Shown here piece by piece: positions 14,632 to 32,000 of a stretch of DNA of 32,000 nt. Origin of the DNA: Vulcanisaeta distributa DSM 14429 (GTDB taxonomy: Archaea > Thermoproteota > Thermoprotei > Thermoproteales > Thermocladiaceae); contig NC_014537.1 in the NCBI RefSeq assembly GCF_000148385.1, positions 1,440,001-1,472,000 of the forward strand, read 5' to 3'. The position numbers and the translations under genes were made by a program. The notes beneath the pieces were generated by a model. The model saw only the letters and a list, made by a program, of their open reading frames with translations, was not told where the DNA came from and ran no database searches. The first letter of the stretch is position 1. Each line of letters starts with the position of its first letter.

Positions 14632-16087
14632 TGAATGGTGTTATCATCGGTCTCGCAAATCCAGGGACTTGGTTAATCAGGGACCTAGGCAGTGGCTTGA
14701 ATATGTAGAGGGCCGCGATCAACACGGCTATGTTTATTAACTGTATTAATGGCCAGGTGATTGGCAGGTCGGAGATCAGTAACGTGCAGGAGGAGATCAG
14801 GGTCAGTACCAGGGATAAGCCAATAACCAAAACATCAATGCTTCGAATGCTCCACCGCTCACTAAACCAGAAGACCACTAAAGTTAATGCATATATTAAG
14901 TAATTACTGGCTATGGCCATGTAAATACCGAGGGAGTGAAAGAGTACGTATGCGAGTATGCCAAGGCCCAGGCCGGCGATGTTTGCGATTAATGCATACC
15001 AACCCCTACCAACGACCCAGTAGTAGGATGTGTATATATTGACTATGACGGCCAACGGCGTGTAACCGAGCAGTACCGAGGCGTAGGGTATTGACTTAAC
15101 ATACCCACCACTAATAATCCCTATGGTCGGCAGAATAGGCAGGGCAAGGACTATTAGCTGGGCGAGGAGGGATGCGGCTATGAAGGATGGTATTGCGTAG
15201 TCACGGAAAGTCCTACTAACGTCAATACCAATACCGAGCCCTTGGGACAACCTACTATTCATCACGGTGGATACGGCAGGGCCCAAGGCAGTTACGGCAT
15301 TAGCAATTGCGGATGCTAATCCATATATACCCGTGAATTCAGGGCCAAGGTATACATAGACAAGGTACATCAGTAAGTTATAGCTTAAGGTACCCATGTA
15401 GCCTAGTAACCACGATTGAAAACCAAACTCAAGAAACCCCTTTATCCTATTTTTCACGACGCCAACCCCAGCCAGTGGATCGGCAATGCCCCTAACAATA
15501 CCCAGGTAGTAAATGAACTGCGCCAGGGAGCCCAGGAACACGGATATGGCTAACGCATAGACGTTACGCATTATGATTATTAATAGTACTTGCATTACTC
15601 TCATGGCAAGTATGTTGATCGTCAAGCCCATGCCTTGAGACGCAACCCTACCCACTAACCATAGGTAGAGACCCAGGGCGCCCGCGATTGATTGAATGAA
15701 AACAACGCCCACGTATATATATGCCGTACCGAGCATCCACCTGGGTATACCATTACCAATGTAGAATGGCGTTGCCAACGCAATTAGTAGTCCGTAAATC
15801 ACGGCCATGATCAATGACATGAAGACCATGGCGGAGAAGTAAGGCTTAACGTCACCACCTCTGGCATACTCAATGGCGCCCTCCCTGGCAATGGCGCCCG
15901 ATATGCCGGGTATCGGTATTAAGGCACCTATTGAGTTTATTATGGCAAAGAGCGCGTTGTAGTATCCGTACTGCGTCAGTGGTATGTACCTGGTTAAGAC
16001 AACTATGTACGCAATGGCTAATGCGTAATTAGCCGCGGTAGGTAGGTAATTCAATACGACAGCTAAAACCGTGTTTTCCCTAACCAT
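14618..16087 (-). CDS. MOP-superfamily (Wzx-like) oligosaccharide/polysaccharide flippase
   Basis: 489 aa with about 14 TM helices and a Polysacc_synt-like layout. It sits next to sugar-nucleotide genes. Confidence 0.65.
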   Translation of the reverse strand: MVRENTVLAVVLNYLPTAANYALAIAYIVVLTRYIPLTQYGYYNALFAIINSIGALIPIPGISGAIAREGAIEYARGGDVKPYFSAMVFMSLIMAVIYGLLIALATPFYIGNGIPRWMLGTAYIYVGVVFIQSIAGALGLYLWLVGRVASQGMGLTINILAMRVMQVLLIIIMRNVYALAISVFLGSLAQFIYYLGIVRGIADPLAGVGVVKNRIKGFLEFGFQSWLLGYMGTLSYNLLMYLVYVYLGPEFTGIYGLASAIANAVTALGPAVSTVMNSRLSQGLGIGIDVSRTFRDYAIPSFIAASLLAQLIVLALPILPTIGIISGGYVKSIPYASVLLGYTPLAVIVNIYTSYYWVVGRGWYALIANIAGLGLGILAYVLFHSLGIYMAIASNYLIYALTLVVFWFSERWSIRSIDVLVIGLSLVLTLISSCTLLISDLPITWPLIQLINIAVLIAALYIFKPLPRSLINQVPGFARPMITPFIKSE

Positions 16088-16150
16088 TCACGAGAGTGCC
16101 ATTACTAACATTATTAAATATTAAGTATTATGCATGTATTAGTTTAAACC

Positions 16151-16158
16151 TTATAAAA
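16151..16158 (+). promoter_or_regulatory. TATA box (ttataaaa) 26 nt upstream of the ATG at 16181
   Basis: The same octamer occurs upstream of acs, at canonical leaderless spacing. Confidence 0.45.
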
Positions 16159-16180
16159 TCATTTTTGACACAGAGTATTA

Positions 16181-17248
16181 ATGTCAGTGAGTGGTGTCGT
16201 ACTTGTCGCTGGTGAAGGGACGAGGCTTAGGCCATTAACGTATACATTGCCAAAGCCATTAATACCAATAATGGGTAGGCCCCTGGTCACGAGGATAATA
16301 GAAGAGCTAATGGGTAATGGTATTAACAACATACATGTGGTTGTTGGTCACCTCGGCTTTCTATTTAAGCAGGTGCTTGGTGATGGGTCGGGTTTAGGCG
16401 TGAATATTAGGTATGTTGAGCAGAGGGAGAGGCTTGGTATTGCCCACGCGATACATAGGGCTGTTGAGGATGGGGCGGTCGGCGAATTAGTAGTTCACCT
16501 TGGCGATAACTACTTCGGCGAAGGGTTAGGTAGGTTCATTCGTGAGTTTAGGGAGGGGGATTACGACGTGTACGTTGTCCTAACAAGGCATAGGGACCCC
16601 ACTAGGTTTGGTAATGCCGTGATTAAGGATGGCAGGATAGTGAAACTCATTGAGAAGCCCAGGGAACCACCGCCAAATAGCTTCGTAATGACCGGGATAT
16701 ACATGTTCAGGGATTCCCACGACGTAGAGAGGGCTTTCAGCACGCTTAAGCCATCGGCTAGGGGTGAGTATGAGATAACAGACTTGATCCAGTGGTTCAT
16801 TGATAATGGCAGGAGGGTGGGTTACTCAATAACCAATAGTTGGTGGAAGGACATGGGGACTCCTCAGGACATACTTGACCTACTTTACCTAATGCTTGAT
16901 GAGGTCAAGCCAAGGATTGAGGGTGAGGTTAGGGGTGAGGTTAATGGCAGGGTTGTTGTGGAGCGCGGGGCGGTGATTGAGGGTAGGGTCCACGGACCAG
17001 CCTACATAGGTAAGGGCTCAATGGTTGGTAAGGACACCGTGATTGAGCACTACGTCGATATTGAATCAAACGTATCAATAAACGGCGGTAGTTTGAGCAG
17101 GTCACTGGTGCTCAGTGATGCATCGCTTGAGTTGGGTAGGGCTAGGCTCGTTGATAGTATTATTGGTCCTAAATCAAGGGTTAGGCTTAGCGGTGGTAAT
17201 TATAGTTTAATACTTGGTGAGGGTAACAGTATAATCAGCATTGCTTAA
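16181..17248 (+). CDS. Sugar-1-phosphate nucleotidyltransferase with a C-terminal left-handed beta-helix domain (RmlA/GlmU-like)
   Basis: N-terminal VLVAGEGTRLRPLTYTLPKPLIPI, with hexapeptide-repeat-like sequence in the C-terminal third. Confidence 0.85.
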   Translation: MSVSGVVLVAGEGTRLRPLTYTLPKPLIPIMGRPLVTRIIEELMGNGINNIHVVVGHLGFLFKQVLGDGSGLGVNIRYVEQRERLGIAHAIHRAVEDGAVGELVVHLGDNYFGEGLGRFIREFREGDYDVYVVLTRHRDPTRFGNAVIKDGRIVKLIEKPREPPPNSFVMTGIYMFRDSHDVERAFSTLKPSARGEYEITDLIQWFIDNGRRVGYSITNSWWKDMGTPQDILDLLYLMLDEVKPRIEGEVRGEVNGRVVVERGAVIEGRVHGPAYIGKGSMVGKDTVIEHYVDIESNVSINGGSLSRSLVLSDASLELGRARLVDSIIGPKSRVRLSGGNYSLILGEGNSIISIA

Positions 17249-18258
17249 TAACTATCCAGCAACTTTGGATTCTGCTCAAGGAGCTTCTTATACCACCTAA
17301 CAGTGAACCACCTATCCTCAGGCCTTAGGTGGCCGGTGAGTAATTCGTGGTATACCTGCTTAACACCATCATCCACATTATAAAGCACGGAGAAGTTCAG
17401 CACCTCCCTAATACGCTTAAAGCTAACTCTATAACTCCTGGCATCAACCATACCCCTAAACCTAACCTCACCACCAACGATGCCCTGCACAATCCTAGCC
17501 ATGTCAATAACTCTAAAGTTCTGCTCATCAGAGCCAACATTAAATACCATGCCATTAACCCTATCACTCGGTGCCTCAAGCACGGTATTAATGGCCCTAA
17601 CGACATCCATAACATGGACGAGAGGCCTCTCCTGCATGCCATCACCCTCAACGTAGATGACCCCCTCCGTGAATGCCGATAACGTCATGGCATTTATCAC
17701 CAGGTCAAACCTCATCCTAATCGATGGCCCGTAGACGGTGGCAAACCTCAATGCAGTCACAGTAAACCTATTACTTGCCAGGGGAAGCACATCCTTCTCA
17801 GCCAATAGGTTAGCCTTGGCGTAGGTCGTTAATGGGTTTGGCTCGGTATTCTCATCAGCAATACCACTCTGCCTACCATAGACACTACAGCTTGAGGCGA
17901 GTACGTACCTAGAGACCCCAACCTCACTGGCAAGCTTAGCCAACCTAGCCCTAGCCCTATAATTAATGTCGAGCGTCCACTGAGGATTCAACTCGCCAGC
18001 AGGGTCATTAGACAATGCCGCAAGATCCACAACAGCGTCAATGCCGTTAAGTACGTCCTTACTTATTGACCTGGTATCGGCTTTAACGAGTTCGAAGTTC
18101 CTCTCACCAATTACGTGCTTAAGCACATCATCGCCAAAAAACAACCTATCAACGCACCTAACGCCATAACCCTTCCTAAGTAGGTATGGCGTTAATAACG
18201 TGCCTATATAACCACCACACCCAGTGATCAGGACCTTCATGTTAATATTAACGTTCAC
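17245..18258 (-). CDS. NAD-dependent nucleoside-diphosphate-sugar epimerase/dehydratase (extended SDR)
   Basis: Rossmann motif VLITGCGGYIGT. 337 aa. Confidence 0.85.
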   Translation of the reverse strand: MNVNINMKVLITGCGGYIGTLLTPYLLRKGYGVRCVDRLFFGDDVLKHVIGERNFELVKADTRSISKDVLNGIDAVVDLAALSNDPAGELNPQWTLDINYRARARLAKLASEVGVSRYVLASSCSVYGRQSGIADENTEPNPLTTYAKANLLAEKDVLPLASNRFTVTALRFATVYGPSIRMRFDLVINAMTLSAFTEGVIYVEGDGMQERPLVHVMDVVRAINTVLEAPSDRVNGMVFNVGSDEQNFRVIDMARIVQGIVGGEVRFRGMVDARSYRVSFKRIREVLNFSVLYNVDDGVKQVYHELLTGHLRPEDRWFTVRWYKKLLEQNPKLLDSY

Positions 18259-18334
18259 ATTTTACTTTTAAGGATTTTCCAAGACGGGATTAGCAATCCA
18301 CATTATGTATATGCGCTTGATAGCGTGATAAGGT

Positions 18335-18346
18335 ATTTATATTTAA
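18335..18346 (+). promoter_or_regulatory. TATA-like 12-mer ATTTATATTTAA upstream of the coiled-coil gene
   Basis: Lies 29-40 nt upstream of the TTG start at 18375. The identical 12-mer also occurs at 12979 and 13006. Confidence 0.4.
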
Positions 18347-18374
18347 TATATCACCACATAATGAGGTGTAGGCT

Positions 18375-19205
18375 TTGGTTGATGTTATTACGATAATCGC
18401 GGTGATAGTGAGCGTAGCATCATCAACGGCATCCCTAGCCTACTGGCTCGGCGGGAGGTTCACGGAGATAGAGTCCAGGTTTGGTCATGTTGATTCAAGG
18501 CTTGGTCAAATCGAGGATAGATTTAATAAAATTGAGAATAGATTTGATAAAATCGAGAATAGGATTAATGTAATCGAAGGTAGAATTAATGGAGTTGAGG
18601 AGAGGGTTAATAGAATTGAGGAAAGGATTGGTAAGGTCGAGGAGAGAATTATTAACATTGAGAATAGAATTGAAAAGATCGAGAACGGACTTAGTGGGAT
18701 TGAGGATAGAGTTAGTAAAATTGAGGACAGAATTAATAGAATTGAAGATAGAATTAATAAGATTGAGGATAGGATCAGTAACATTGAGAATAGAATTAGC
18801 GGAGTGGAAAATAGGATTAATAGTCTTGAGATTAGGATTGAAAGACTTGAAAACGCGTTCAAGCAGTTCTCCGAGGTTCTCATAACGGCATTGGAATCCA
18901 AGGGCATATTTACATCGACGGAGGCCCTGACCCTCAGGAGCATGGTGAAGACACTGCTGCCGGTGCCAAGGACTAAGTACTACACGTGGGAGGTCTATGA
19001 GAGGCTCAGGCAGTTGCTTGATAAGGACCCAAATGAATACACTATGGCCGATATTGAGCAATTGAATGATATCGCAGATTTAATAGAGAAGGAGGGCTTT
19101 GAAGCAAATAGGAGGGACCTAATAGAGTACGCCTGGAAACTCAGGTACTACGCAATGGTCGCCAAGGTGGTCTTCGTATACCCAAAGCTAAGACAACAAA
19201 AATAA
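18375..19205 (+). CDS. Membrane-anchored coiled-coil protein: N-terminal TM helix, 19 perfect heptads, and a roughly 110-aa C-terminal helical domain
   Basis: The TM helix is VDVITIIAVIVSVASSTASLAYWLGG. From residue 32 the sequence runs IESRFGH VDSRLGQ IEDRFNK IENRFDK IENRINV ... LENAFKQ without a stutter. Confidence 0.7.
   Translation: MVDVITIIAVIVSVASSTASLAYWLGGRFTEIESRFGHVDSRLGQIEDRFNKIENRFDKIENRINVIEGRINGVEERVNRIEERIGKVEERIINIENRIEKIENGLSGIEDRVSKIEDRINRIEDRINKIEDRISNIENRISGVENRINSLEIRIERLENAFKQFSEVLITALESKGIFTSTEALTLRSMVKTLLPVPRTKYYTWEVYERLRQLLDKDPNEYTMADIEQLNDIADLIEKEGFEANRRDLIEYAWKLRYYAMVAKVVFVYPKLRQQK
18468..18866 (+). repeat. 21-bp-periodic coding tandem repeat (19 units) encoding the IExRIxx heptads
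   Basis: Examples of the repeated units are attgaggatagaattaataga, attgaagatagaattaataag and attgaggataggatcagtaac. The repeat also generates stop-free spurious ORFs in other frames and on the opposite strand. Confidence 0.85.
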
Positions 19206-19378
19206 TGATGCACCAACCCCGGTGCTAAACCCCACCATTAACCTTCAAGTTCTCATCATTAGTTTTAACCACGAGGTCACTAAAACGCCCCATACGGCAG
19301 TTTTCGACACATACTGACAAGAGACTCAAGTGCTAATTTAAACTGGACGTGAGCACACCAAACATCAGCTCAAGTAAG

Positions 19379-19385
19379 TATTTAA
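19379..19385 (+). promoter_or_regulatory. TATA-like box (tatttaa) of the PaREP1 gene
   Basis: Lies 32-38 nt upstream of the GTG at 19417. A homologous gtttaag precedes the PaREP1 relic at 21254. Confidence 0.4.
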
Positions 19386-19396
19386 GGGGGGGGGGG
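19386..19396 (+). repeat. G11 mononucleotide tract between the TATA box and the PaREP1 start codon
   Basis: Direct count gives g at every position from 19386 to 19396. Confidence 0.95.
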
Positions 19397-19416
19397 ATTA
19401 ATACTAATCCTGAACT

Positions 19417-19980
19417 GTGAACACGGAAACCCTCGAGAAGCCATTGCCTAAGCCTTCCATGGAGGATTACGTGAACGCAAGGCTACTAGAAGCTTTAGTC
19501 GAGGCCAGACTTGCCCTCGAGTTCCTTGGTAGGGGTTTGGTTAGGAATGCAGCTGGCAAGGCTTTCCAGTCCTGGAGAGCTTTGCTCGCGGCATTACTGA
19601 GGCTTGAGCTTGATAGGTTAATGCAGGTAGTTAAGACCGATGAGGAGCGTAGGTGGCTAATGGAGAGAGCAATACCCAGAGTCCCAACGAGCAGGATGAT
19701 GGCGTTATCCAAAATGCTCAGTGACATTGGGCATGCCGGGTTATTACCTGACACCGCATTAGCCCTGAGCCTGCACGATTATCAGTATAATGGGCCAGAC
19801 CCCGACATGGCACTGTCGAAGTTTAGGAGTAGGAGTGACGCCGCAGCGGCGGTCCTGGAGCTTATTAGCGAGGTGGTTAGGCGTATTGAGGAGCTGAAGC
19901 CAAGAATCAAGTGGGGTAATGAGCTTGAGGAGGCTCTCAGGGAGCTTAAGGATGAGCTTAACAGGGTAGGGAAATCCTAA
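19417..19980 (+). CDS. PaREP1-family protein (PF05942-like, function unknown)
   Basis: 187 aa, all-helical. The ...LEFLGRGLVRNAAGKAFQSWRALLAAL... block matches my recollection of the PaREP1 signature. GTG start. Confidence 0.65.
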   Translation: MNTETLEKPLPKPSMEDYVNARLLEALVEARLALEFLGRGLVRNAAGKAFQSWRALLAALLRLELDRLMQVVKTDEERRWLMERAIPRVPTSRMMALSKMLSDIGHAGLLPDTALALSLHDYQYNGPDPDMALSKFRSRSDAAAAVLELISEVVRRIEELKPRIKWGNELEEALRELKDELNRVGKS

Positions 19981-20039
19981 GATCTGCCAGAGACGTCACT
20001 CCATCCACGCCTCAATCCATTATTAAGGCATGATAAACA

Positions 20040-20045
20040 TTTTTT
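20040..20045 (+). terminator. Oligo-T (T6) candidate terminator after PaREP1
   Basis: The T6 run lies 60 nt downstream of the stop. Archaeal termination commonly uses oligo-T. Confidence 0.25.
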
Positions 20046-20072
20046 AGGAACCCACGCATAATCGCGGACTCA

Positions 20073-20180
20073 GAAACACTTGATAAACCACTGCCTAAAC
20101 TGAATGCTAGAGATTGCATGAGCGTCAGCTACTTAAGACCTTAGTCAAGGCTAAATTAGTCCTGGAATCCTCAGTGAGGG
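20073..20180 (+). pseudogene. Decayed 5' fragment of a PaREP1 gene immediately upstream of the ATPase gene
   Basis: gaaacacttgataaaccactgcctaaac...ttagtcaaggctaaattagtcctgg aligns by eye with the intact copy gaaaccctcgagaagccattgcctaagcc...ttagtcgaggccagacttgccctcg at roughly two-thirds identity. It is interrupted by stops. Confidence 0.5.
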
Positions 20181-20199
20181 CTAAGTGCCGTGTTGAGTT

Positions 20200-21252
20200 G
20201 TGATAAGGCTAATAAGGAGGAGGATGGGGGTCTACGTCGTGGGGAGGGTTAGGCTGGGCTTTGCTAATTTAACGATTGAATTCGTGGATAGGGACCTCGC
20301 CCTTAAACTCATTGATGAATGGGCCGAGAAAAGCACCTTCCCAGTCCAAGTCATCTATGGACCAGAGGGTTGTGGTAAGACTGCGTGGCTTCTGCAGTCA
20401 GTGGAGTTGCTTAGGGATTACGGGTTCGAGGTTGTTTATGTGAATCCAATCAATAGGCTTGCCTTTGCTGAGGTAAGCATCAGTAGCCTTAGGGAGGAGT
20501 TCTTCAAGCTGGTTAAGGAGGCTATTGCACAAAGTGCGTTGGCTAGAATCGCATGGATAGCGTACAACGTGGTTTATGACGTAATCAAGGCGACCAGGGG
20601 AAAAATAGCCATCATCGTTGACGACGCATTCCAGGTAATCGGCATCAAGGAGTCCGCATTATACGTGAAGGCACTGCTAAACCTCATTGAGTACCCACCC
20701 GAGCATTATGAGAGGATAGTCACGATAGCAGCAACGAGCGAGGGCGTGTCGAGGAGAGAAATAGGAAGACACACGTGGGCTTGGATAATACCCATGTGGA
20801 ATATGCCGAAGAACGGGTTCAAGCAACTTTATGATCAAATACCGGGCAAGAAGCCGGACCTCGAAGAGGTCTGGCGGTTGACTGGGGGTAATCCGAGGAT
20901 GCTTGAGGAATTGTATAAAGCCAATTGGGATGCTGATAGGGTGATTGGGGAGTTGATTAAGGGTAAGGGCGTTGATGTTTTTGTAAGCTCGCTAAGTGAT
21001 AGTGAGAGGCGCATGTTGGCTAGGGCTGTTGAAGATCCAGACGTGCTATTCACGAGGGAGGGAATACCACTAATGAGCAAATTAATCGAGCTAAACCTGG
21101 TACTCGACATATCGGACAGGAAGCCATACCTATGGATAGACCAACCACCACCTGAGAAAGATGAGGAACTCGGGATTGGCAGGCGCGTCGCGTGGCAATC
21201 ACCACTGCATAGAGAAGCCGTGAGGAGGATGCTTGAAGCGCAATCTCAATAA
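20200..21252 (+). CDS. P-loop NTPase of an uncharacterised archaeal ATPase family (paralog A); likely true start at ATG 20224
   Basis: Walker A is YGPEGCGKTAWLLQ and Walker B-like is IAIIVDDAFQ. The C-terminal domain ends ...WQSPLHREAVRRMLE. About 55% aa identity by eye to the ORF at 30520-31530. Confidence 0.75.
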   Translation: MIRLIRRRMGVYVVGRVRLGFANLTIEFVDRDLALKLIDEWAEKSTFPVQVIYGPEGCGKTAWLLQSVELLRDYGFEVVYVNPINRLAFAEVSISSLREEFFKLVKEAIAQSALARIAWIAYNVVYDVIKATRGKIAIIVDDAFQVIGIKESALYVKALLNLIEYPPEHYERIVTIAATSEGVSRREIGRHTWAWIIPMWNMPKNGFKQLYDQIPGKKPDLEEVWRLTGGNPRMLEELYKANWDADRVIGELIKGKGVDVFVSSLSDSERRMLARAVEDPDVLFTREGIPLMSKLIELNLVLDISDRKPYLWIDQPPPEKDEELGIGRRVAWQSPLHREAVRRMLEAQSQ

Positions 21253-21283
21253 GTGTTTAAGGGAGGGATGCAGTGAATTAGCC

Positions 21284-21525
21284 GTGGATGCGGAGACCCT
21301 TGAGAGACCCCTACCTAAGCCAACCATGGAGAACTACATCATGTGAGGCTCCTGGATCATTGATTGAAGCCAAGCTATCCCTTAAATTCCTCAGCAAGGG
21401 CTTGGTTAGGGATGTCGCGGGTTGATGAGGAGAATTGAGGAACTGAAACCAAGAATCAAGTGGAGTGATGACTTGGAGAGTACGTTAAAGCCTTGAAGGA
21501 GGAGGCAGGTGTTGGTAAAAGTTAA
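21284..21525 (+). pseudogene. PaREP1 pseudogene with an internal deletion of about 0.3 kb plus stops and frameshifts
   Basis: VDAETLERPLPKPTMENYIM* and ...KLSLKFLSKGLVRDVAG match the PaREP1 N-terminus. The sequence then jumps directly to RRIEELKPRIKWSDDLE, which matches the C-terminus VRRIEELKPRIKWGNELE. The promoter-like gtttaagggaggg is retained at 21254-21267. Confidence 0.7.
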
Positions 21526-21554
21526 ACAATTCAATACTGATTTAGGGAGTCGAA

Positions 21555-22625
21555 ATGAGGGTATGCATACTTGAGGAATTCACAAGGCTTGGTGGCGGGC
21601 AGGTATATGCACTGCAGATGGCTAGGGCGTTAACGGAGCTTGGGCACTCCGTGGAGTTCGTGGTCACTGGTGACATCAAGGTTGACCCCAAATACCCAGT
21701 GAGGCACGTGGACGTGGGTTTCAAGGCGTCCTACGACCCAGCCTCACTACTCATTAACTACATAAACCATAGGAGGTTAAGGAGACTGCTGGGTAGGTAT
21801 GTCGATGACTGTGACCTAGTCATAAATAATCACCCAAACTACATACCATACAACAAAGGCCCAATAGTGCTTCACGGGCTCTCCTTCGTGGACTTCATAA
21901 TCGATGAGAATGGGAACATAAGAAACCAACTACTGTTTTGGGTACTCTCGAGGATTTACAGGATGTACGATGGCTCATACATGATCTACAACTCAAGGTA
22001 CACAATGAACCTAGCCAAGAAACTACTGCCAAAAATGGGCATAGAACCAAGGCTCGAGTACGTACTAAGCCCACACTACACAATAAGCACAGACAAGATA
22101 CCGGAGAAGGAGGACTACGTACTAACCCTGGGAAGACTCGAGTGGAGCAAGGGCTACAGGGAACTAATAAAGATAGCACCAAGAATAGGAAAGAGAATAA
22201 TTGTGGCAGGCAGGGCAGACGCGAGGGAATCAAGGGAGGTAATAAGGGCTCTCAGGGGCGTTAAAAACATAGACGTGATGCCGGACATAGACGAAAAGAC
22301 GAAGGAGGAACTATACAAACACGCATCAATATACCTACACCTCAAACCAAACGAGCACTTCGGGATAGCGGTACTAGACGCCATAGCCACGGCAACAATA
22401 CCAATAGTACCAAGGACAGGAGGACCTTGGACAGACATAGTGGAGGAGGGAAAATACGGACTAGGATACACAAACACCGAGGAAATACCACAACTAATAA
22501 ACAAAGCCGAAGAAATCAACAGAGAAAAGATATTCAAAGGCAGGGAAAGGTATAGCCCAGAGAACTTCAGGAGGAAACTCATAAAGGCATTATCAATGGC
22601 AATACACAGTAAAGATGCGGAATGA
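21555..22625 (+). CDS. GT4-family (group 1) glycosyltransferase
   Basis: N-terminal MRVCILEEFTRLGGGQVYALQMARAL, with the C-terminal motif EHFGIAVLDAIATATIPIV. Confidence 0.8.
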   Translation: MRVCILEEFTRLGGGQVYALQMARALTELGHSVEFVVTGDIKVDPKYPVRHVDVGFKASYDPASLLINYINHRRLRRLLGRYVDDCDLVINNHPNYIPYNKGPIVLHGLSFVDFIIDENGNIRNQLLFWVLSRIYRMYDGSYMIYNSRYTMNLAKKLLPKMGIEPRLEYVLSPHYTISTDKIPEKEDYVLTLGRLEWSKGYRELIKIAPRIGKRIIVAGRADARESREVIRALRGVKNIDVMPDIDEKTKEELYKHASIYLHLKPNEHFGIAVLDAIATATIPIVPRTGGPWTDIVEEGKYGLGYTNTEEIPQLINKAEEINREKIFKGRERYSPENFRRKLIKALSMAIHSKDAE

Positions 22626-22692
22626 ATTTAAGAATGGATGCTTGTGAATAATACTTAAATAATGATATTAGTATTGAAAATTACTACGCAAC

Positions 22693-25332
22693 ATGCAGTC
22701 AATCAATAGGCACGTCATTATTAATGAGATTGAAAAAAGGAAAATCATCATTAAATTGTTCTCTTTACCGTTATTAATTCAATTCTACATAGTATTTACA
22801 CTCGGCTACCTAAACATAACGCCACGGCTATATAATTATGAAGTAATACACATATCAGCAATAGCGTTCACGGTCGGGTTCTTTCTGTTCATGACACCAA
22901 CAATAACAAATCAAGTAAGGCAGGCAATAAACGACAAATACTACGCAGCAACACTACTAATATTCCTGGCAATAACCTACGAACTAACCTACCTAGCCAC
23001 AGTACCACCATACTACGGACTAAGCCTAGGGGCAAGCCTGGACACGGCAACTTACTTACAATCCTTCGCTTCATTAACATACTACAGGCAATTCCTGGTA
23101 AGCTTCGTAGGACCATTCTTTAGTGTTCACGCATCACCAATACTACTCCTAATATACCCAATCTACGAGGTATACCCATCAATATTCACATTAATGACAA
23201 TACAAGTCGTAATACTAATGCTACCAATACCACTAATGTATAAACTAGGCATGAAAATACTCAACAACCCAAAGCATGCACTGGCCACAGCACTACTATA
23301 CATACTATACCCATGGATAATAACCGCATACGCACCATTCGAAGTAGTCACGTTGGCAGGGTCATTCATGGCGATGACACTAATAACCATGTACCTAAAT
23401 GACAAAAAGGCTTATTGGGCATCATTAACCCTAGCCATGGCATCGATAGAATACGTACCATTATTCGGCATCGGACTAAGCATATACCAAGCACTATCAA
23501 AGGAACATAGAAAACTAGCCCTACTAACATTCATATACTCGATAGCATGGTTAATAGCTGACTACTACCTGGTAATGTACTTCAGTGGGCGGACACATAA
23601 CATATTCTCAAATCTATACGGAGCAGCCCTAAGCTCACTACTAACAAACATAACAAACAAACTACTAAACCCCAACACCACTAAGGCGCTTACTATAGAT
23701 CCACAAACGCGCACGGTCATGGACACAACCAACGTATTAAACGGCATAATTCAACAAGCCACCTCTCAATACAACATAAAGGTCCAATACGTGATAGAGG
23801 TATTTGGACCCCTGGCATTCATAAACTTCCTCGAACCACAAACAATACTACTAATGCCCTGGCTAGCGGCATTACTAACAAACTTCACACCATACTACAT
23901 ACCAAACGTATACTACACAATCCTCATAAGCGCAGTCGCACTGCCGGCAACAATATGGGCACTAAGGAGGCTAAAGATTGAAACGAGGAAAAGGGCACTA
24001 ACGGCACTACTAATAATAAACACAATAACGGGACTACTCACGGGACCACTAACACCACTCTCCGGGCTATACTACGGAAACACAATACCAAACTGGAACG
24101 CACCAGTGGCCAACCAATACGACTTAGCCATGATACAACTAGCCAATTATATACCATGGAACGCATCAGTGGCCGTACCAGCCACGGCAGTCCCCTGGTA
24201 CTCAATAACAAGGTATGGATGGGGAAACCACGGAGTACCATTCCTCGGACCAAACAGTAATACCCAGTACGTGGTTTATTCACCACTCGTGCCAACGGGA
24301 TACCCATACAACACAGGAGGTAGTGAATATGGCCCATATGCCTTTGATGATGGTGCATGGATACTGAAGGCAAACTACACAGGGCCAATAAAGATAATCA
24401 ACGGGTTCTACTACGAGAACACCTACATAATAAACCCAGTACTGCCAGGTACGTGGCAATACCCAATAGCCCAAATACCACCAACAAACATAACAATACA
24501 AATAACCACAGAAACAAAACCACAACAAGCAATAACACTACTAAACACAACACTACTCAAAACACAACTACAACAACCCCAAGGAATAGCCTGCGGAATA
24601 GGGCCTGGCGAAGTAATCATACCTGGAGGCACTTACATCGCACAACCAGTAACCATAAACGAAACAACAAGAATAAGCTCAATAACGGTATTCACATCAT
24701 ATGAGACCAACCTGGCCACAGCAGAATTAATAATATCAACAACACCAACACCTAACCAAAAAAGCACTATATACACATATACCTTTGGAACGCCATGGTG
24801 GTGCTCACCGCATTCCTGGACAACACCAATAACAGCAAACCCAGACATAACCCTAAAACCAGGAACATACTACATAATACTGACATTCCCAATACAAGGA
24901 CAAACAATATGCGAACAAATACCAAACACACCAAAGGCACTACTCATAAACGCAACAACAGGACAAATAATAAAACAACTACCATGCACCCTAGGAACAA
25001 TAATAACAACAAACCCACGAAGTAGTTTCAAGGTATCATTATCTAATGTAATAATAAATATATTAAGCAATGAAATACAGATAAATGGAAATGAAGAAAT
25101 AATGATAAGTACCGTAGTTAAAAATGTGTCAGGGCTTGTACTAACAATAAACTCACAAAATACACAATCTAATATTCAATTAACTATAAAACTAAAGGTA
25201 ATGACTCAAAACGCATCAGGCCCATTAATACCATGGTACTTAATACCTATCATAGGACTAATACCTGAGTACGTACTTCTTGCTCTAGCAATGTTAATGC
25301 TAGTTCCTAACCTAAGGAATTTAAGGTGGTAA
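22693..25332 (+). CDS. Large polytopic membrane protein: DUF2079-like (GT-C-type) N-terminal domain, a Thr/Asn/Pro/Gln-rich sequon-rich ectodomain, and a C-terminal TM anchor
   Basis: About 12-13 TM helices. The VHASPILLLIYPIYEVYPS...QVVILMLPIPLMY block resembles the DUF2079 core as I recall it. The distal half has at least 11 N-x-S/T sequons. The last roughly 35 aa form a hydrophobic anchor (WYLIPIIGLIPEYVLLALAMLMLV). Confidence 0.55.
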   Translation: MQSINRHVIINEIEKRKIIIKLFSLPLLIQFYIVFTLGYLNITPRLYNYEVIHISAIAFTVGFFLFMTPTITNQVRQAINDKYYAATLLIFLAITYELTYLATVPPYYGLSLGASLDTATYLQSFASLTYYRQFLVSFVGPFFSVHASPILLLIYPIYEVYPSIFTLMTIQVVILMLPIPLMYKLGMKILNNPKHALATALLYILYPWIITAYAPFEVVTLAGSFMAMTLITMYLNDKKAYWASLTLAMASIEYVPLFGIGLSIYQALSKEHRKLALLTFIYSIAWLIADYYLVMYFSGRTHNIFSNLYGAALSSLLTNITNKLLNPNTTKALTIDPQTRTVMDTTNVLNGIIQQATSQYNIKVQYVIEVFGPLAFINFLEPQTILLMPWLAALLTNFTPYYIPNVYYTILISAVALPATIWALRRLKIETRKRALTALLIINTITGLLTGPLTPLSGLYYGNTIPNWNAPVANQYDLAMIQLANYIPWNASVAVPATAVPWYSITRYGWGNHGVPFLGPNSNTQYVVYSPLVPTGYPYNTGGSEYGPYAFDDGAWILKANYTGPIKIINGFYYENTYIINPVLPGTWQYPIAQIPPTNITIQITTETKPQQAITLLNTTLLKTQLQQPQGIACGIGPGEVIIPGGTYIAQPVTINETTRISSITVFTSYETNLATAELIISTTPTPNQKSTIYTYTFGTPWWCSPHSWTTPITANPDITLKPGTYYIILTFPIQGQTICEQIPNTPKALLINATTGQIIKQLPCTLGTIITTNPRSSFKVSLSNVIINILSNEIQINGNEEIMISTVVKNVSGLVLTINSQNTQSNIQLTIKLKVMTQNASGPLIPWYLIPIIGLIPEYVLLALAMLMLVPNLRNLRW

Positions 25333-26105
25333 TTTTTAAATGTTATAAGGCTATACTTGATATTATGGCAAATATTATAATCAATTGCAGAAATAACCCT
25401 GTGGGATTAATTAAGAGAGCATTTATTTTCTTCATTAACGTTAAAGGTATTACATTTTATGACGAACTTCGTCTCTTAATAGCTGTATTAATATTTATAT
25501 ATTATATATTACGTAGGCTATTAAGGTTAGAAAATAAGGTTTATAACCTTTCGTATTACATACCAGGTAAAGATTCAGTATTAATAAGGTACCGTGATGA
25601 AGAATACGATGTGAAATTCATAATTAGACCTCGTAGTGGGGATTTCTACGATATATTAGGAGAACATTATGAATTAAATCATTGGCTAGCCTTAGTACTT
25701 AACACCACTAAACATGCTGTGATTGTTGATGTTGGTGCTTATATAGGTGGTTATACCGTTAGGGCTTGTAAAAAGGCTAAGCGAGTAATTGCCATTGAAC
25801 CCTTAGAAAGCGCCGCAACTCTACTCCGTAAGAACGTAGAACTTAATAATTGTAATAACGTAGTATTAATAAAAAAGGCCGTATGGAAGGAACAAGGCAA
25901 GGTTCCTATGAAAATTGTTGAGTTTAATGAAGAAGAATCAAGGATAGATCATAATGGTAACATAATCATTGAAGCAGATACTCTCGATAATATAATAAAG
26001 GAATTGGGGATTGACCGCATAGACTTTCTAAAAATTGATATTGAGGGTGCCGAGGCAGAGGCAATACATGGAATGAAAGAAACCTTAAAAATACGAATTA
26101 TCTAA
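25326..26105 (+). CDS. FkbM-family SAM methyltransferase, N-terminal 259 aa, interrupted at an A5 run; likely true start at the internal Met MANIIINC
   Basis: VIVDVGAYIGGYTV (SAM motif) and IDFLKIDIEGAEAEAI are FkbM/Methyltransf_21 hallmarks. The ORF ends prematurely at the TAA at 26103-26105. Confidence 0.7.
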   Translation: MVIFKCYKAILDIMANIIINCRNNPVGLIKRAFIFFINVKGITFYDELRLLIAVLIFIYYILRRLLRLENKVYNLSYYIPGKDSVLIRYRDEEYDVKFIIRPRSGDFYDILGEHYELNHWLALVLNTTKHAVIVDVGAYIGGYTVRACKKAKRVIAIEPLESAATLLRKNVELNNCNNVVLIKKAVWKEQGKVPMKIVEFNEEESRIDHNGNIIIEADTLDNIIKELGIDRIDFLKIDIEGAEAEAIHGMKETLKIRII

Positions 26106-26248
26106 TGATAGAGCTAAGACCTAGCACATTATGGTTAATTAATGAGTTAAATAAGTTAGGGTTTAAGGTATTAGATTGTGTAAATTATGGCAACTTTATT
26201 AACGTGTTTCTACACAATGAGGGTAAACTAAATAGTACACACTTATAA
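26105..26248 (+). CDS. 46-aa continuation of the FkbM methyltransferase in the -1 frame (MIELRPSTLWLINELNKLGFKVLDCVNYGNFINVFLHNEGKLNSTHL)
   Basis: This is my own translation; the ORF is below the ORF-track size cutoff. The sequence looks like the usual FkbM C-terminal strand-helix-strand. Its ATG overlaps the upstream TAA (taATG). Confidence 0.55.
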   Translation: MIELRPSTLWLINELNKLGFKVLDCVNYGNFINVFLHNEGKLNSTHL

Positions 26249-26278
26249 ACTTAATATAATCTTAGTATTAGTAAGCCC

Positions 26279-28514: not shown

Positions 28515-28708
28515 ACTATTTCATATTCATATGGGTATTTAATTCTTTCGTATTGTTTATGCAGTGTTATAATTTTTAATTTATATTTTTGTTGGTATTA
28601 TGTCTAGTTTCTGGCTATTTCACAGATCATATTTATGACTTTCTTTGAAGCATTCATTAGTTTATATTTTCACTTTAGGTAATTCTTTTAAGTTATGCTT
28701 TTTGGTCA

Positions 28709-30519: not shown

Positions 30520-31530
30520 TTAATCCCCTTCTTTTAGCGTTCTTCTCACGGCTTCTCTGTGTAGTGGTGTTTGCCAGGCTAGGTCTTTTCCTATCCCTAG
30601 TTCTGGGTCTTTTTGTGGTGGCGGTTCCCCTGTCCAGTACCATGGGTCTCTCCACTCCGGTATTTCCATGATTAGGTTTTGCTCGATTAGTTTATTCATG
30701 AGTGGTATGCCGTCCCTGGTCATGAGTGTGTCTGGGTCTTCAATTGCCTTAATTAGTAATTGCCTCTCTCCATTGCTTAGTGATGCTGTGAATGTCTTGA
30801 GGTTTTTGCTCATTATTAGGTCGCTGATTACCTTCTCGGTATCCCAACCAGCCCTGTATAGTTCCACCAGCATCTTTGGGTTTCCACCTGTGATTCTCCA
30901 AATAACGTCGAAGTTAGGCTTATCGCCGGGTAATTGATTGTATAACTGCTTGAATCCCTCCCTCGGCATGTTCCACATGGGCCTCATGTCTGCCCATCTG
31001 TGGCGCTCAATCTCGCGTCTCGAAACTCCCTCACTCGTGGCTACCACCGCAATGACTATGTCGTATGTCCTTGGCGGGTATTCAATCAAACCCAGCAGGC
31101 CCTTCACGTAAATCGCCGCCTTGTCTAGACCTATTGCCTGGAACACGTCGTCGGCCAGTACCGCCACCTTCTTTGCGCCTGCCTTCATGATTTCCTTAGC
31201 AATGTCCACCACGGCCCATGCAACCCTCACCCAGGTATCGGCCGTGGCTTCCCTGAGTATTTCCATTAGCCTTGCCTTGACATCTGTTATTCCGGTTTCC
31301 GCCATTACCTCCTTCTCGACTGGATTTACATAAACCACATCGAAGCTCAACTCCTTAAGTAACTCAACGGATTGTTTTAGCCATGTCGTTTTCCCACAAC
31401 CCTCAGGTCCATAAACTACCTGAACCGGGTATGTACCCTTATCGGCCTATTCCTTAACACGTCTCATTATTAGGTCTCTGTCCACTAACTCGACCGCTAG
31501 ATTTGCGAAGTTTAGCTTGATCCTTCTCAC
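30520..31530 (-). pseudogene. P-loop ATPase paralog B, disrupted by an in-frame TAG at 31447-31449
   Basis: The ORF track gives only 30520-31350 (TTG-initiated, no P-loop). My translation further upstream in the same frame gives VRRIKLNFANLAVELVDRDLIMRRVKE*ADKGTYPVQVVYGPEGCGKTTWLKQSVELLKEL. This is collinear with paralog A (VGRVRLGFANLTIEFVDRDLALKLIDEWAEKSTFPVQVIYGPEGCGKTAWLLQ). The stop sits where paralog A has Trp. Confidence 0.8.
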
Positions 31531-32000
31531 TGTGTTTGATAGGTTGTTCTTTGTTTATTTTTCTTTCCTGTCTTAGGTTTTGGTGTCGTCATGTTCCTTA
31601 GTGTAGTTATTGATGCGTGGTTTCATGTATTTGCCATTCTATTACCGCTCCGTATATTGTGCATGTGTTCAGTTCTTGGCTCTCCTGTGTCTCCTTGTCC
31701 GTGTTCACGTCAACGGCCAGGCTTCTCAGTCGTTCATTAAGCACCATCTATAGTCACAAACTCACATAAACCTCAAATATAGAATATTATTTTAAAATGG
31801 ATTTCGTTTGGTTCATGTCCATGATTTTTCGTTATGTGGTACGTGCTGTGTCTGAAGCAGATGGTAGGTATGGTTAAATCCTTAATAGGTGTCAGATTAC
31901 TGGGTTCGATGATGACAAAGCTTTATTGGTATTTAATAACTTGGTGAATGGGATCAGTGGTATAGTGGAGCTTTATCATCCTGTTGCGCCCTGATACTTA

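What the first reader, a model, noticed from the sequence alone, without database searches (positions are those of the whole stretch)
19379..21525. Recurrent PaREP1 -> P-loop ATPase module of unknown function, caught in several stages of decay
Within 2.1 kb there are four related elements:
- An intact PaREP1 gene (19417-19980).
- A decayed PaREP1 5' fragment abutting the ATPase start (20073-20180).
- The ATPase itself (20200-21252).
- A third PaREP1 copy with its central ~0.3 kb deleted (21284-21525), which still carries its own TATA/G-rich promoter remnant.

The second ATPase paralog at 30520-31530 also seems to have a PaREP1-like start upstream. This repeated juxtaposition suggests a two-gene functional unit: a small helical protein plus an NTPase. 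That layout resembles toxin-antitoxin or defence-type modules, and the unit appears to duplicate and erode rapidly. PaREP1 is a family without an assigned function, so the pairing itself is the lead.
Basis: partly seen in the sequence, partly recalled or inferred. Interest (0 to 1): 0.68.

Follow-up and report, generated by a model that had tools for sequence, protein, structure and literature searches.

The report
Decaying HEPN-ATPase gene cassette in Vulcanisaeta
A small HEPN-fold gene (PaREP1) and an Orc/STAND-like ATPase gene lie side by side far more often than chance allows in Pyrobaculum and a few relatives. This window holds one partly decayed copy of that pair, which makes the ATPase a candidate for the still unknown partner of PaREP1, although no functional link has been shown.

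Summary
The four elements at 19379-21525 are real:
- An intact PaREP1 gene (19417-19980).
- A PaREP1 5' remnant (20073-20180).
- An ATPase_2 gene (best start 20239, ends 21252).
- A PaREP1 pseudogene (21284-21518) with a 323-bp internal deletion and two frameshifts. The syntenic Vulcanisaeta souniana locus still has this copy intact.

The claim of a PaREP1-like start upstream of the second ATPase fails. That gene is on the minus strand and carries a nonsense codon, and only an 11-nt chance-level match lies upstream.

The pairing is non-random but restricted to certain lineages:
- 17 of 26 Pyrobaculum ATPases have PaREP1 within 350 bp.
- 18 of 57 PaREP1 genes have the ATPase within 300 bp.
- None of 40 ATPases in other orders are paired.

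The duplicated unit is ATPase→PaREP1, not the reverse, and each gene has its own TATA box.

PaREP1 is already published as a non-canonical HEPN family whose partner is unknown. The ATPase has an Orc1/Cdc6- or STAND-like fold.

The most likely reading is a chromosomal conflict-type cassette in which an NTPase switch works with a HEPN-fold effector. It spreads by duplication and paralog gene conversion and decays quickly. The functional link is inferred, not shown.

This is a moderately interesting new variant of a known kind.

The parts
19379..19396 (+). Promoter region of PaREP1 #1. It contains a TATA-like box, TATTTAAG (19379-19386), followed by an 11-G run (19386-19396).
   Evidence: Sequence read. 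A TATA-like hexamer peaks 20-29 nt upstream of the start in at least 73 of 106 distinct PaREP1 upstream regions, against 15 of 106 in a control window. V. souniana has GGGG here and an ATG start.
19417..19980 (+). Intact PaREP1 gene #1, 187 aa with a GTG start. It has a HEPN-T fold.
   Evidence: PF05942 at E=1e-26. It is 97% identical to the V. souniana ortholog, with dN/dS 0.17. The AlphaFold model has pLDDT 91 and its best PDB match is 2q00.
20073..20180 (+). Decayed PaREP1 5' fragment (codons about 3-40) in the spacer before the ATPase.
   Evidence: The DNA alignment to 19425-19534 scores 37, against 18.6±2.2 for shuffles; 0 of 500 shuffles reached it. tblastn gives weak hits. The fragment is conserved in V. 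souniana.
20210..20217 (+). TATA-like TAATAAGG, 22-29 nt upstream of GTG 20239. This is a possible promoter for the ATPase itself (inferred).
   Evidence: Sequence read. TATA-like hexamers peak at the same distance upstream of ATPase homologs, in at least 30 of 113 regions against 6 of 113 in the control window.
20239..21252 (+). ATPase_2 gene, 337 aa. The ORF is open from 20200. It has a P-loop nucleotide-binding domain, a helical lid and a winged-helix-like C-terminal domain.
   Evidence: PF01637 at E=4.8e-70. The Walker A motif GPEGCGKT and the Walker B DD are invariant in 24 homologs. The model has pLDDT 90 and matches Orc1/Cdc6, DnaA, Avs3, Apaf-1 and NLR proteins. dN/dS against V. souniana is 0.20.
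20396..20995 (+). Mosaic central segment of the ATPase, replaced by gene conversion between paralogs.
   Evidence: This segment is 58-87% identical in nucleotides to V. souniana, while the flanks are 97-100% identical. The window protein is 90-100% identical over aa 1-180 to paralog P0003 from the same genome, and 97-100% identical over aa 151-330 to P0005.
21256..21261 (+). TATA-like TTTAAG retained upstream of the PaREP1 #3 remnant.
   Evidence: Sequence read. It is conserved in V. souniana upstream of the intact gene.
21284..21518 (+). PaREP1 #3 pseudogene. It has two 1-nt deletions in the 5' part and a 323-bp internal deletion, with the junction at 21414-21422. The 3' end is retained.
   Evidence: tblastn and HMM pieces. 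A direct repeat links 21417-21478 to 19868-19929 at 79% identity. V. souniana has an intact 183-aa PaREP1 at L159 7867-8418.
30520..31533 (-). Second ATPase paralog, 54% identical and inactivated by a TGG→TAG nonsense codon at 31449-31447, upstream of the Walker A motif. It has no PaREP1 partner.

Best explanation
The locus is one copy of a multi-copy chromosomal cassette found in Thermoproteales. In the cassette an Orc1/Cdc6- or STAND-like P-loop ATPase gene (an ATPase_2 subfamily) is followed 45-95 bp downstream by a PaREP1 gene encoding a non-canonical HEPN-fold protein. In this window the cassette is additionally preceded by another PaREP1 gene.

Shown:
- The two families are tightly and non-randomly adjacent.
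- The ATPase→PaREP1 pair is copied as one block.
- Adjacent partners co-diverge.
- Both intact genes here are under purifying selection.
- Copies decay by frameshift, deletion and nonsense mutation.
- ATPase paralogs exchange segments.

Inferred mechanism:
- The ATPase acts as a nucleotide-dependent switch or sensor.
- It gates, or is gated by, a PaREP1 dimer that serves as an RNA-directed (or RNA-binding) effector. This would be analogous to NTPase-regulated HEPN systems.
- Each gene is made from its own TATA promoter as a leaderless or near-leaderless mRNA.
- Partners may also work in trans among the many paralogs in a genome.

In this window the canonical downstream PaREP1 is dead. The ATPase and the upstream PaREP1 are still intact.
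For: Adjacency:
- In ATPase-anchored genome loci, 19 of 36 PaREP1 hits lie within 120 bp of an ATPase. Ten are ATPase→PaREP1 co-oriented, five are PaREP1→ATPase and four are convergent.
- In PaREP1-anchored metagenome loci, 18 of 57 PaREP1 genes have the ATPase within 300 bp. Gaps cluster at 60-93 bp upstream, and at 5-8 or 110-142 bp downstream.
- The density of ATPase gene edges is 0.66 per kb in the first 300 bp and 0.116 per kb beyond (p about 2e-12).
- In Pyrobaculum 17 of 26 ATPases are paired. Under a generous assumed genome-wide null, this has p about 1e-18.

Inheritance as a unit:
- Contiguous self-alignments run across the ATPase, the spacer and PaREP1. An example is L016 7528-9093 against 10405-11970, 74% identical over 1569 bp. 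L141, L107 and L054 show the same.
- Mantel tests of PaREP1 against ATPase distances give r=0.73 (n=13) and r=0.78 (n=6).
- The linkage appears in several separate clades of both trees and in at least four fixed geometries.

Links to other HEPN-type contexts:
- ATPase→MNT→PaREP1 triplets occur, where MNT is a minimal nucleotidyltransferase (L115, L125, L145).
- In lineages without PaREP1, the same ATPase neighbours classical HEPN (PF05168), RHH (ribbon-helix-helix)-PaREP8-like and MNT genes.

Folds and selection:
- PaREP1's best PDB match is 2q00, followed by other HEPN structures.
- The ATPase matches Orc1/Cdc6, DnaA, Avs3, Apaf-1 and NLR proteins.
- dN/dS is 0.17 for PaREP1 and 0.20 for the ATPase.
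- The orthologous V. souniana locus has the intact trio PaREP1-ATPase-PaREP1.

Literature: PaREP1 is a HEPN family not linked to MNT, with an unidentified partner (PMC3632139).
Against: - No experiment or complex prediction shows that the proteins interact.
- The link is not obligatory. About two thirds of PaREP1 genes lack the ATPase, and solitary PaREP1 genes sit among housekeeping genes.
- The ATPase family thrives without PaREP1 outside Pyrobaculum: 0/40 in other orders, 0/11 in Thermoproteus/Thermoproteaceae and 0/9 in Thermoproteales MAGs (metagenome-assembled genomes) are paired, and 1/25 in Vulcanisaeta/Caldivirga.
- Each gene tends to have its own TATA box, so co-transcription is not required.
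- PaREP1 lacks the Arg of the catalytic Rx4-6H motif (PMC3710099). It is unusually conserved for a toxin, at 65-70% identity across genera.
- No PaREP1-ATPase fusion appeared among the best 150 of 253 representatives, all of which are 243 aa or shorter.
- Neither protein has a significant PADLOC match; the only listed hit is a weak Cas3d match at E=0.054.
- The co-divergence test is confounded by organism phylogeny.
Confidence: 0.45

Rival explanations
1. Linkage by descent only. PaREP1 and this ATPase are two independently acting, highly amplified gene families that live in the same variable genome islands. A founder pair was copied repeatedly by tandem duplication, so adjacency reflects history and not a shared function.
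For: - ATPase density is already high (about 0.1 per kb) throughout the 5-kb flanks of PaREP1, which indicates island-level clustering.
- Tandem ATPase arrays occur without PaREP1 (L011, L037, L067).
- Pairs are copied as blocks.
- Each gene has its own promoter.
- Neither family needs the other in most lineages.
- paREP genes mark indel and inversion regions in Pyrobaculum oguniense (PMC3558965).
Against: - Adjacency persists although the paralogous units have diverged to about 70-74% nucleotide identity, and adjacent ATPases differ at about 40% of amino-acid positions on average.
- It occurs in several separate clades of both gene trees and in at least four different fixed geometries, including convergent pairs 8 bp apart. 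One founder event does not easily explain this.
- The same ATPase neighbours other HEPN-superfamily genes where PaREP1 is absent.
Confidence: 0.3
2. PaREP1 is a self-contained, promoter-carrying gene cassette that spreads by recombination. It lands preferentially next to the conserved 3' end of these ATPase genes. On this reading the ATPase is a landing site or homology arm, not a partner.
For: - PaREP1 carries its own positioned TATA box, and promoter-proximal DNA is conserved among copies whether or not they are linked to an ATPase.
- Solitary copies sit between housekeeping genes.
- The ATPase 3' end is highly conserved, and the spacer to PaREP1 is tightly sized at 45-95 bp.
- The ATPase between two PaREP1 genes in this window is a recombination mosaic.
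Against: - No integrase, transposase, terminal repeats or target duplications were seen.
- The families are absent from viral, phage and plasmid collections.
- The mosaic breakpoints lie inside the ATPase gene, not in the PaREP1 genes.
- PaREP1 also occurs upstream of, and convergent to, the ATPase.
Confidence: 0.1
3. Classical toxin-antitoxin (TA) pair. PaREP1 is a HEPN RNase toxin and the ATPase replaces MNT as its antitoxin, or the roles are reversed. Both are expressed from one autoregulated operon and act as an addiction module.
For: - HEPN proteins are toxins in HEPN/MNT systems, and PaREP1's partner is unknown (PMC3632139).
- One PaREP1 clade does pair with MNT.
- In three loci PaREP1 and the ATPase are only 5 bp apart (L056, L075, L112).
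Against: - Most pairs have 45-140 bp spacers with a separate TATA box for the second gene.
- Neither gene is small and labile in the way typical antitoxins are.
- The catalytic Arg is missing.
- Intact PaREP1 genes persist next to dead ATPases, as in L039 and L054. An intact ATPase persists here next to a dead PaREP1 without apparent cost.
- The ATPase occurs widely without any PaREP1.
Confidence: 0.1

Closest known systems
PaREP1/PaREP8 family (PF05942), the HEPN-T clade of the HEPN superfamily (Anantharaman et al. 2013, PMC3710099; structure 2q00)
   Same: The small gene is a bona fide member. It has a Pfam hit above the cut-off, a helical fold whose best PDB match is 2q00, a conserved His without the Arg of Rx4-6H, and many copies per genome in Thermoproteales.
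   Different: Published neighbours are tandem PaREP genes, or MNT plus a DUF1626 nuclease. The ATPase_2 neighbour seen here is not mentioned in the papers I could read.
HEPN/MNT toxin-antitoxin modules (type VII TA)
   Same: They use a HEPN-fold protein paired with a nucleotide-using enzyme, occur in many copies and sit in variable regions. One PaREP1 clade does sit next to an MNT, sometimes with the ATPase just upstream.
   Different: The window has no MNT. The partner is a 337-aa AAA+/STAND-like ATPase. The genes have separate promoters, and the catalytic Arg is absent.
NTPase-regulated HEPN nucleases: PrrC and RloC anticodon nucleases, and bacterial HEPN-STAND fusions (the fusions are noted in PMC3710099; the PrrC/RloC architecture is from my own knowledge)
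   Same: The logic is the same: a P-loop NTPase module controls a HEPN effector in a conflict system.
   Different: In those systems the domains are fused in one polypeptide, and the NTPases are of other types (ABC/Rad50-like, or long STAND proteins with repeat sensors). Here there are two separate genes, and no fusions were found.
ATPase_2 (PF01637, COG1672), the 'ATPase domain predominantly from Archaea'
   Same: The large gene is a clear member (E=4.8e-70), with Walker A and B motifs, a lid and a winged-helix-like C-terminal domain.
   Different: This subfamily's C-terminal domain has its own invariant W...PPPEKD..LGIG..AWQ.PLHREA motif. No additional Pfam nuclease domain was detected in it. 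The family as a whole has no tested function.
Orc1/Cdc6, DnaA and STAND (Avs, Apaf-1, NLR) nucleotide-binding cores
   Same: They are the best structural matches (Foldseek probability 1.0, E 4e-6 to 2e-4), with the same domain order of nucleotide-binding, helical and winged-helix domains.
   Different: Sequence-model scores are far below the family cut-offs (TIGR02928 14 bits against 181; nSTAND5 22.6 against 34). TM-scores are low (0.3-0.5). There are no sensor repeats and no fused effector.

Membership tests
PaREP1/PaREP8 (PF05942) | Match to the Pfam model above the gathering score | tested here: met
   93.5 bits against a cut-off of 24.4, E=1e-26.
PaREP1/PaREP8 (PF05942) | HEPN-type helical fold like 2q00 | tested here: met
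   The model has pLDDT 91. The top PDB hit is 2q00_A, with probability 1.0 and TM-score 0.70 on the target. However, E is only 0.028 and no PDB match reached E<=0.001. Other HEPN structures (1wol, 2hsb, 1o3u, AbiV) score much lower, with probability 0.54-0.69 and E 0.36-1.0.
PaREP1/PaREP8 (PF05942) | Conserved His but no Arg 4-6 residues before it | tested here: met
   In the LHDYQYNGPDPD motif, H120 is conserved in at least 90% of 26 sequences, and no Arg lies in the preceding six positions. This agrees with PMC3710099.
Catalytic HEPN RNases | Rx4-6H active-site motif | tested here: not met
   The Arg is absent. Whether other conserved basic residues (R43, K48, R88) substitute for it was not testable.
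HEPN/MNT toxin-antitoxin | Adjacent minimal nucleotidyltransferase gene | tested here: not met
   The window has no MNT hit. An MNT is present next to a different PaREP1 clade in six loci.
Classical type II TA operon | Two small genes, overlapping or nearly so, transcribed from one promoter | tested here: not met
   Gaps are mostly 45-140 bp, and a positioned TATA box precedes the second gene. Transcription itself was not measured.
ATPase_2 (PF01637) | Match to the Pfam model above the gathering score, with intact Walker A and B motifs | tested here: met
   236.3 bits against a cut-off of 33.2. G41-K47 and D128-D129 are invariant.
STAND NTPases (Avs/NLR-like) | Nucleotide-binding, helical and winged-helix core, plus C-terminal repeat sensor and an effector domain | tested here: inconclusive
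   The core fold matches Avs3, Apaf-1 and NLR proteins. However, nSTAND5 scores 22.6 bits against a cut-off of 34, and the 337-aa protein has no sensor repeats or effector.
Orc1/Cdc6 replication initiators | Match to the Orc1/Cdc6 family model | tested here: not met
   TIGR02928 scores 14.1 bits against a cut-off of 181.3. Only the fold is similar.
Known anti-phage defence systems (PADLOC-DB v2) | Match to any component model | tested here: not met
   There is no hit for PaREP1, and only a weak Cas3d hit (E=0.054) for the ATPase.
Virus, plasmid or transposon cargo | Presence on viral or plasmid records, or next to mobility genes | tested here: not met
   There are no relatives in IMG/VR apart from one 37-aa P-loop match. 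INPHARED and PLSDB gave none. The window has no mobility gene nearby.
Fused NTPase-HEPN nucleases (PrrC/RloC type) | ATPase and HEPN domains in one polypeptide | tested here: not met
   All of the best 150 PaREP1-profile representatives, out of 253, are 243 aa or shorter.

The most novel reading that the evidence does not exclude
This ATPase_2 subfamily is the long-sought partner of the PaREP1 HEPN proteins. On this reading, a free-standing Orc/STAND-like ATP switch controls a non-canonical HEPN effector that lacks the catalytic Arg. The two are encoded as separately promoted neighbours that can also pair in trans. This would define a new two-component conflict or immunity system specific to hyperthermophilic Thermoproteota. 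The ATPase would diversify by gene conversion between paralogs.
Probability: 0.25. Interest if true: 0.65.

Novelty: new variant of a known kind. Interest (0 to 1): 0.5.

Why it matters
PaREP1 is one of the largest lineage-specific gene expansions in Thermoproteales. It is a HEPN family for which comparative genomicists explicitly left the partner, an "unidentified antitoxin", open (PMC3632139).

A reproducible, tightly spaced link to one ATPase subfamily gives a concrete and testable candidate. It also suggests that a minimal Orc/STAND-like ATPase can work with a separately encoded HEPN protein.

If the link is functional, it would add an archaeal two-gene NTPase-HEPN system to the list of conflict modules. 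It would also help explain the indel and inversion hotspots marked by paREP genes.

If it is not functional, the locus is still a clean example of birth and death of paralogous cassettes, with gene conversion between paralogs.

Tried and rejected
- **PaREP1 remnant upstream of the second ATPase.** Rejected. Only an 11-nt match was found, at chance level.
- **PaREP1→ATPase as the unit.** Rejected in favour of ATPase→PaREP1, based on block self-alignments and gap statistics.
- **Mobile-element origin.** No viral, phage or plasmid relatives were found, and no tRNA lies in the window.
- **Structured RNA in the spacers.** No Rfam match at E<=0.1.
- **Known defence system.** No PADLOC hits.
- **Rosetta-stone fusion of the two families.** None was seen.
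- **Homology between the upstream coiled-coil gene and the coiled-coil/nuclease-like PaREP1 neighbour seen in metagenomes.** Not supported.
- **Profile comparison of PaREP1 with a classical HEPN, to place the His.** Uninformative, with probability 0.6%.
- **Direct PDB sequence searches.** They gave nothing useful.
- **Four exact-protein look-ups of Vulcanisaeta ATPases.** They returned nothing on record.
- **The sigma-70 promoter and terminator scan.** It is not applicable to archaea and gave chance-level counts.
Full report
**What is in the window**

The ORF at 19417-19980 (+) is a PaREP1 protein. It matches PF05942 at E=1e-26.

The ORF at 20200-21252 (+) is an ATPase_2 protein. It matches PF01637 at E=4.8e-70. 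The database protein and the family consensus begin at GTG 20239, giving 337 aa.

A PaREP1 remnant lies downstream of the ATPase.
- Codons 1-47 are at 21284-21421 and are broken by two single-base deletions.
- Codons about 153-175 are at 21422-21490.
- The original stop codon is at 21516-21518.

A shorter remnant of the PaREP1 5' end lies in the 258-bp spacer at 20073-20180. Its local alignment score is 37, against 18.6±2.2 for shuffles, and 0 of 500 shuffles reached it.

A second ATPase paralog (54% identity) lies on the minus strand at 31533-30532. It carries a TAG codon where the family has a nearly invariant Trp, upstream of the Walker A motif, so it is a pseudogene. The PaREP1-like start claimed upstream of it reduces to an 11-nt identity that 66 of 500 shuffles match.

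**Source and orthologous locus**

The ATPase is 100% identical to a protein from a 2,374,137-bp contig. Several Vulcanisaeta distributa proteins come from a contig of the same length. I therefore infer that the window is from V. distributa.

The Vulcanisaeta souniana genome has a syntenic locus, L159. Its gene order is epimerase(-), coiled-coil protein, PaREP1 (187 aa), ATPase_2, PaREP1 (183 aa, intact), GT4 glycosyltransferase, DUF2079.

The window aligns to this locus on both sides but lacks L159 8000-8322. That is a 323-bp deletion inside the third PaREP1. The "stages of decay" reading is therefore directly verified. The spacer remnant is present in both species and so predates their split.

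The cassette sits inside a surface-glycan gene cluster containing a flippase, a sugar nucleotidyltransferase, an epimerase, several glycosyltransferases, an FkbM methyltransferase and a carbamoyltransferase.

**What the two proteins are**

PaREP1 is not an unclassified family.
- It was described as a HEPN family expanded in Thermoproteales that does not pair with MNT (PMC2701414).
- It was later placed in the HEPN-T clade. The His of the Rx4-6H motif is kept but the Arg is lost, and the representative structure is 2q00 (PMC3710099).
- Its partner was explicitly left open as a "still unidentified antitoxin" (PMC3632139).

My results agree with this.
- The model is confident (pLDDT 91) and all-helical.
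- Its best PDB match is 2q00, with probability 1.0 and E 0.028. Other HEPN structures follow at lower scores.
- H120, in the motif LHDYQYNGPDPD, is conserved in at least 90% of sequences with no Arg before it.

The subfamily is strikingly conserved, at 65-70% identity across Vulcanisaeta, Caldivirga, Pyrobaculum, Thermoproteus and Infirmifilum.

The ATPase has several clear features.
- Its Walker A (GPEGCGKT) and Walker B (DD) residues are invariant in 24 homologs.
- Its C-terminal motif is very conserved.
- The model (pLDDT 90) has a nucleotide-binding domain, a helical lid and a winged-helix-like domain.
- Its best structural matches are Orc1/Cdc6, DnaA, Avs3, Apaf-1 and plant NLR proteins.
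- The Orc1/Cdc6 and STAND sequence models score far below their cut-offs.

**Is the pairing real?**

I anchored one genome scan on the ATPase, which gave 78 loci. I anchored one metagenome scan on PaREP1, which gave 80 loci. I located both families with my own HMMs on six-frame translations.

*ATPase-anchored loci.* Nineteen of 36 PaREP1 hits lie within 120 bp of an ATPase.
- Ten are ATPase→PaREP1, co-oriented, with gaps of 45-95 bp.
- Five are PaREP1→ATPase, with gaps of 5 or about 115 bp.
- Four are convergent, with gaps of 8-35 bp.

*PaREP1-anchored loci.* Eighteen of 57 distinct PaREP1 genes with both flanks assessable have an ATPase within 300 bp. Upstream gaps cluster tightly at 60-93 bp.

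*Density.* ATPase gene edges occur at 0.66 per kb in the first 300 bp and 0.116 per kb at 0.3-4.9 kb. The Poisson p is about 2e-12. The local background is itself high, so both island-level clustering and immediate adjacency are present.

*By taxon.* The association is concentrated in one genus.

| Group | ATPases with PaREP1 within 350 bp |
|---|---|
| Pyrobaculum | 17/26 |
| Vulcanisaeta/Caldivirga | 1/25 (plus this locus and its ortholog) |
| Thermoproteus/Thermoproteaceae | 0/11 |
| Thermoproteales MAGs (metagenome-assembled genomes) | 0/9 |
| Other orders | 0/40 |

Solitary PaREP1 genes also sit among housekeeping genes in V. moutnovskia and P. arsenaticum.

**What is the unit?**

Self-alignments run without a break from the ATPase through the spacer into PaREP1.
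- L016 7528-9093 aligns to 10405-11970 at 74% identity over 1569 bp.
- L141, L107 and L054 show the same pattern.

In this window the canonical partner of the ATPase is the dead downstream copy.

Adjacent partners co-diverge. Mantel tests give r=0.73 (n=13) and r=0.78 (n=6), although organism phylogeny contributes to this correlation.

In the PaREP1 tree, genomic context is structured by clade. There are ATPase-linked clades, an MNT-linked clade and several solitary clades. In the ATPase tree, the linked genes fall in at least five separate clades.

Several fixed geometries spread over several clades are hard to derive from a single founder event. This is my main argument for selection on the linkage.

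**Transcription signals**

A TATA-like hexamer peaks 20-29 nt upstream of the start codon.
- For PaREP1 it is present in at least 73 of 106 distinct upstream regions, against 15 of 106 in a control window.
- For the ATPase it is present in at least 30 of 113, against 6 of 113.

The genes therefore look individually promoted and leaderless. This fits established crenarchaeal promoter architecture (my own knowledge) and argues against a classical autoregulated two-gene operon. Only the 5-bp PaREP1→ATPase pairs leave no room for a separate intergenic promoter (L056, L075, L112).

**Other neighbours**

One PaREP1 clade is preceded by a minimal nucleotidyltransferase (MNT; Polbeta family, PF18765). 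In L115, L125 and L145 the ATPase lies just upstream of that MNT.

Where PaREP1 is absent, the same ATPase neighbours other gene types:
- classical HEPN (PF05168);
- RHH (ribbon-helix-helix)-PaREP8-like proteins;
- MNT;
- retropepsin-like proteases;
- an unknown 149-aa protein.

Of 91 intact ATPases, 23 have a HEPN-superfamily neighbour within 350 bp, and 28 have another ATPase copy adjacent. The ATPase thus keeps company with HEPN-type genes more generally.

**Decay and diversification**

The window shows a deletion, frameshifts and a nonsense mutation. It also shows recombination.

Between the window and V. souniana, synonymous divergence (dS) is 0.07-0.09 for the epimerase, the coiled-coil gene, PaREP1 #1 and GT4. 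For the ATPase it is 0.61.
- A sliding window places the divergent block inside the ATPase gene at about 20396-20995. The flanks are 97-100% identical.
- The window protein is 90-100% identical over residues 1-180 to paralog P0003 from the same genome. It is 97-100% identical over residues 151-330 to another protein, P0005.
- This pattern indicates segmental gene conversion between paralogs.

Both intact genes are under purifying selection, with dN/dS 0.17 and 0.20.

One caveat applies to pseudogene counts. Many frameshifted ATPases come from draft Vulcanisaeta assemblies, where sequencing error cannot be excluded.

**Mechanism**

The shown facts are linkage, block inheritance, purifying selection, the two folds, and decay.

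The inferred mechanism is that the ATPase is a nucleotide-dependent switch working with a PaREP1 dimer as an RNA-directed or RNA-binding effector. This would be analogous to NTPase-controlled HEPN systems. I put this at 0.45.

Rival explanations:
- Hitch-hiking of two amplified families in variable islands (0.3).
- PaREP1 as a promoter-carrying cassette that lands beside the ATPase (0.1).
- A classical TA operon (0.1).

The evidence against any functional link is substantial.
- The association is facultative.
- The promoters are separate.
- The catalytic Arg is missing.
- No fusion proteins appeared among the best 150 of 253 PaREP1-profile representatives.
- Neither protein has a significant PADLOC match; the only listed hit is a weak Cas3d match at E=0.054.

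**Comparison and novelty**

The parts are members of known families, PF05942 and PF01637. The combination resembles HEPN/MNT modules and the fused NTPase-HEPN nucleases PrrC, RloC and HEPN-STAND. It meets the defining features of none of them.

I found no paper in the searchable library that links PF01637/COG1672 to PaREP1. The published PaREP1 neighbours are tandem PaREP genes, or MNT plus DUF1626 (PMC3710099).

I rate this a new variant of a known kind, of moderate interest. It turns an explicitly open question, the partner of PaREP1, into a testable one. The present evidence is comparative only.

Noticed in passing
window 19386-19396 and 19417: The promoter of the intact PaREP1 carries an 11-G run between the TATA box and the start codon, where V. 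souniana has GGGG. The start codon is GTG here and ATG there. The 7 extra bases shift the TATA-to-start spacing from 25 to 32 nt. This may be an early step of decay or a slippage-prone expression switch.
   Followed up: partly
window 20396-20995: The central third of the ATPase gene is only 58-87% identical to the V. souniana ortholog, while both flanks are 97-100% identical. Different halves of the protein are near-identical to different paralogs (P0003, P0005). This indicates gene conversion between paralogs.
   Followed up: partly
window 18375-19205 (repeat at 18508-18798): The gene just upstream of PaREP1 encodes a coiled-coil protein built from about 14 tandem 21-nt (heptad) repeats. V. 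souniana keeps it at the same position but with a length difference (276 against 269 aa). It is not homologous to the coiled-coil/nuclease-like PaREP1 neighbour seen in metagenomes.
   Followed up: partly
window 13843-30517: The cassette is embedded in a surface-glycan biosynthesis cluster. Synonymous divergence (dS) from V. souniana is strongly mosaic across it: flippase 1.83, NTP-transferase 0.63, epimerase 0.075. The whole region therefore appears to be a recombination hotspot. In four metagenome loci (L115, L125, L143, L145) a PaREP1 gene is also followed by an epimerase gene.
   Followed up: partly
L115 3-2240; L125 2291-5549; L145 3107-5326: These loci carry ATPase→MNT→PaREP1 triplets. 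A minimal nucleotidyltransferase (MNT) sits between the ATPase and a distinct PaREP1 clade. This links the ATPase to a HEPN/MNT-type pair.
   Followed up: partly
L022 3480-3908, L023 3556-3912, L006 1402-1752, L009 3077-3361; also L091, L114, L126, L129: Small retropepsin-like aspartyl protease genes (PF13650/PF13975) recur immediately upstream of both the ATPase and PaREP1, in different lineages.
   Followed up: no
L011 5995-13196; L015; L037; L067: Head-to-tail arrays of up to about eight ATPase copies occur in Vulcanisaeta and Thermoproteaceae. Many are broken into two to four frame pieces. In the draft JCM assemblies, some of these breaks may be sequencing errors.
   Followed up: no
L124 5864-6619, L131 890-1639, L151 4676-5383, L088 1540-2244 and others: An unannotated protein of about 250 aa with no Pfam match is the commonest non-ATPase neighbour of PaREP1. 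It forms a cluster of 10 neighbour ORFs and is co-oriented with PaREP1 in all the members listed.
   Followed up: no
(representative library): About half of the 150 best PaREP1-profile representatives are shorter than 110 aa and match only part of the profile. This fits with many truncated PaREP1 gene fragments in public assemblies. Some of them will be partial genes at contig edges.
   Followed up: no
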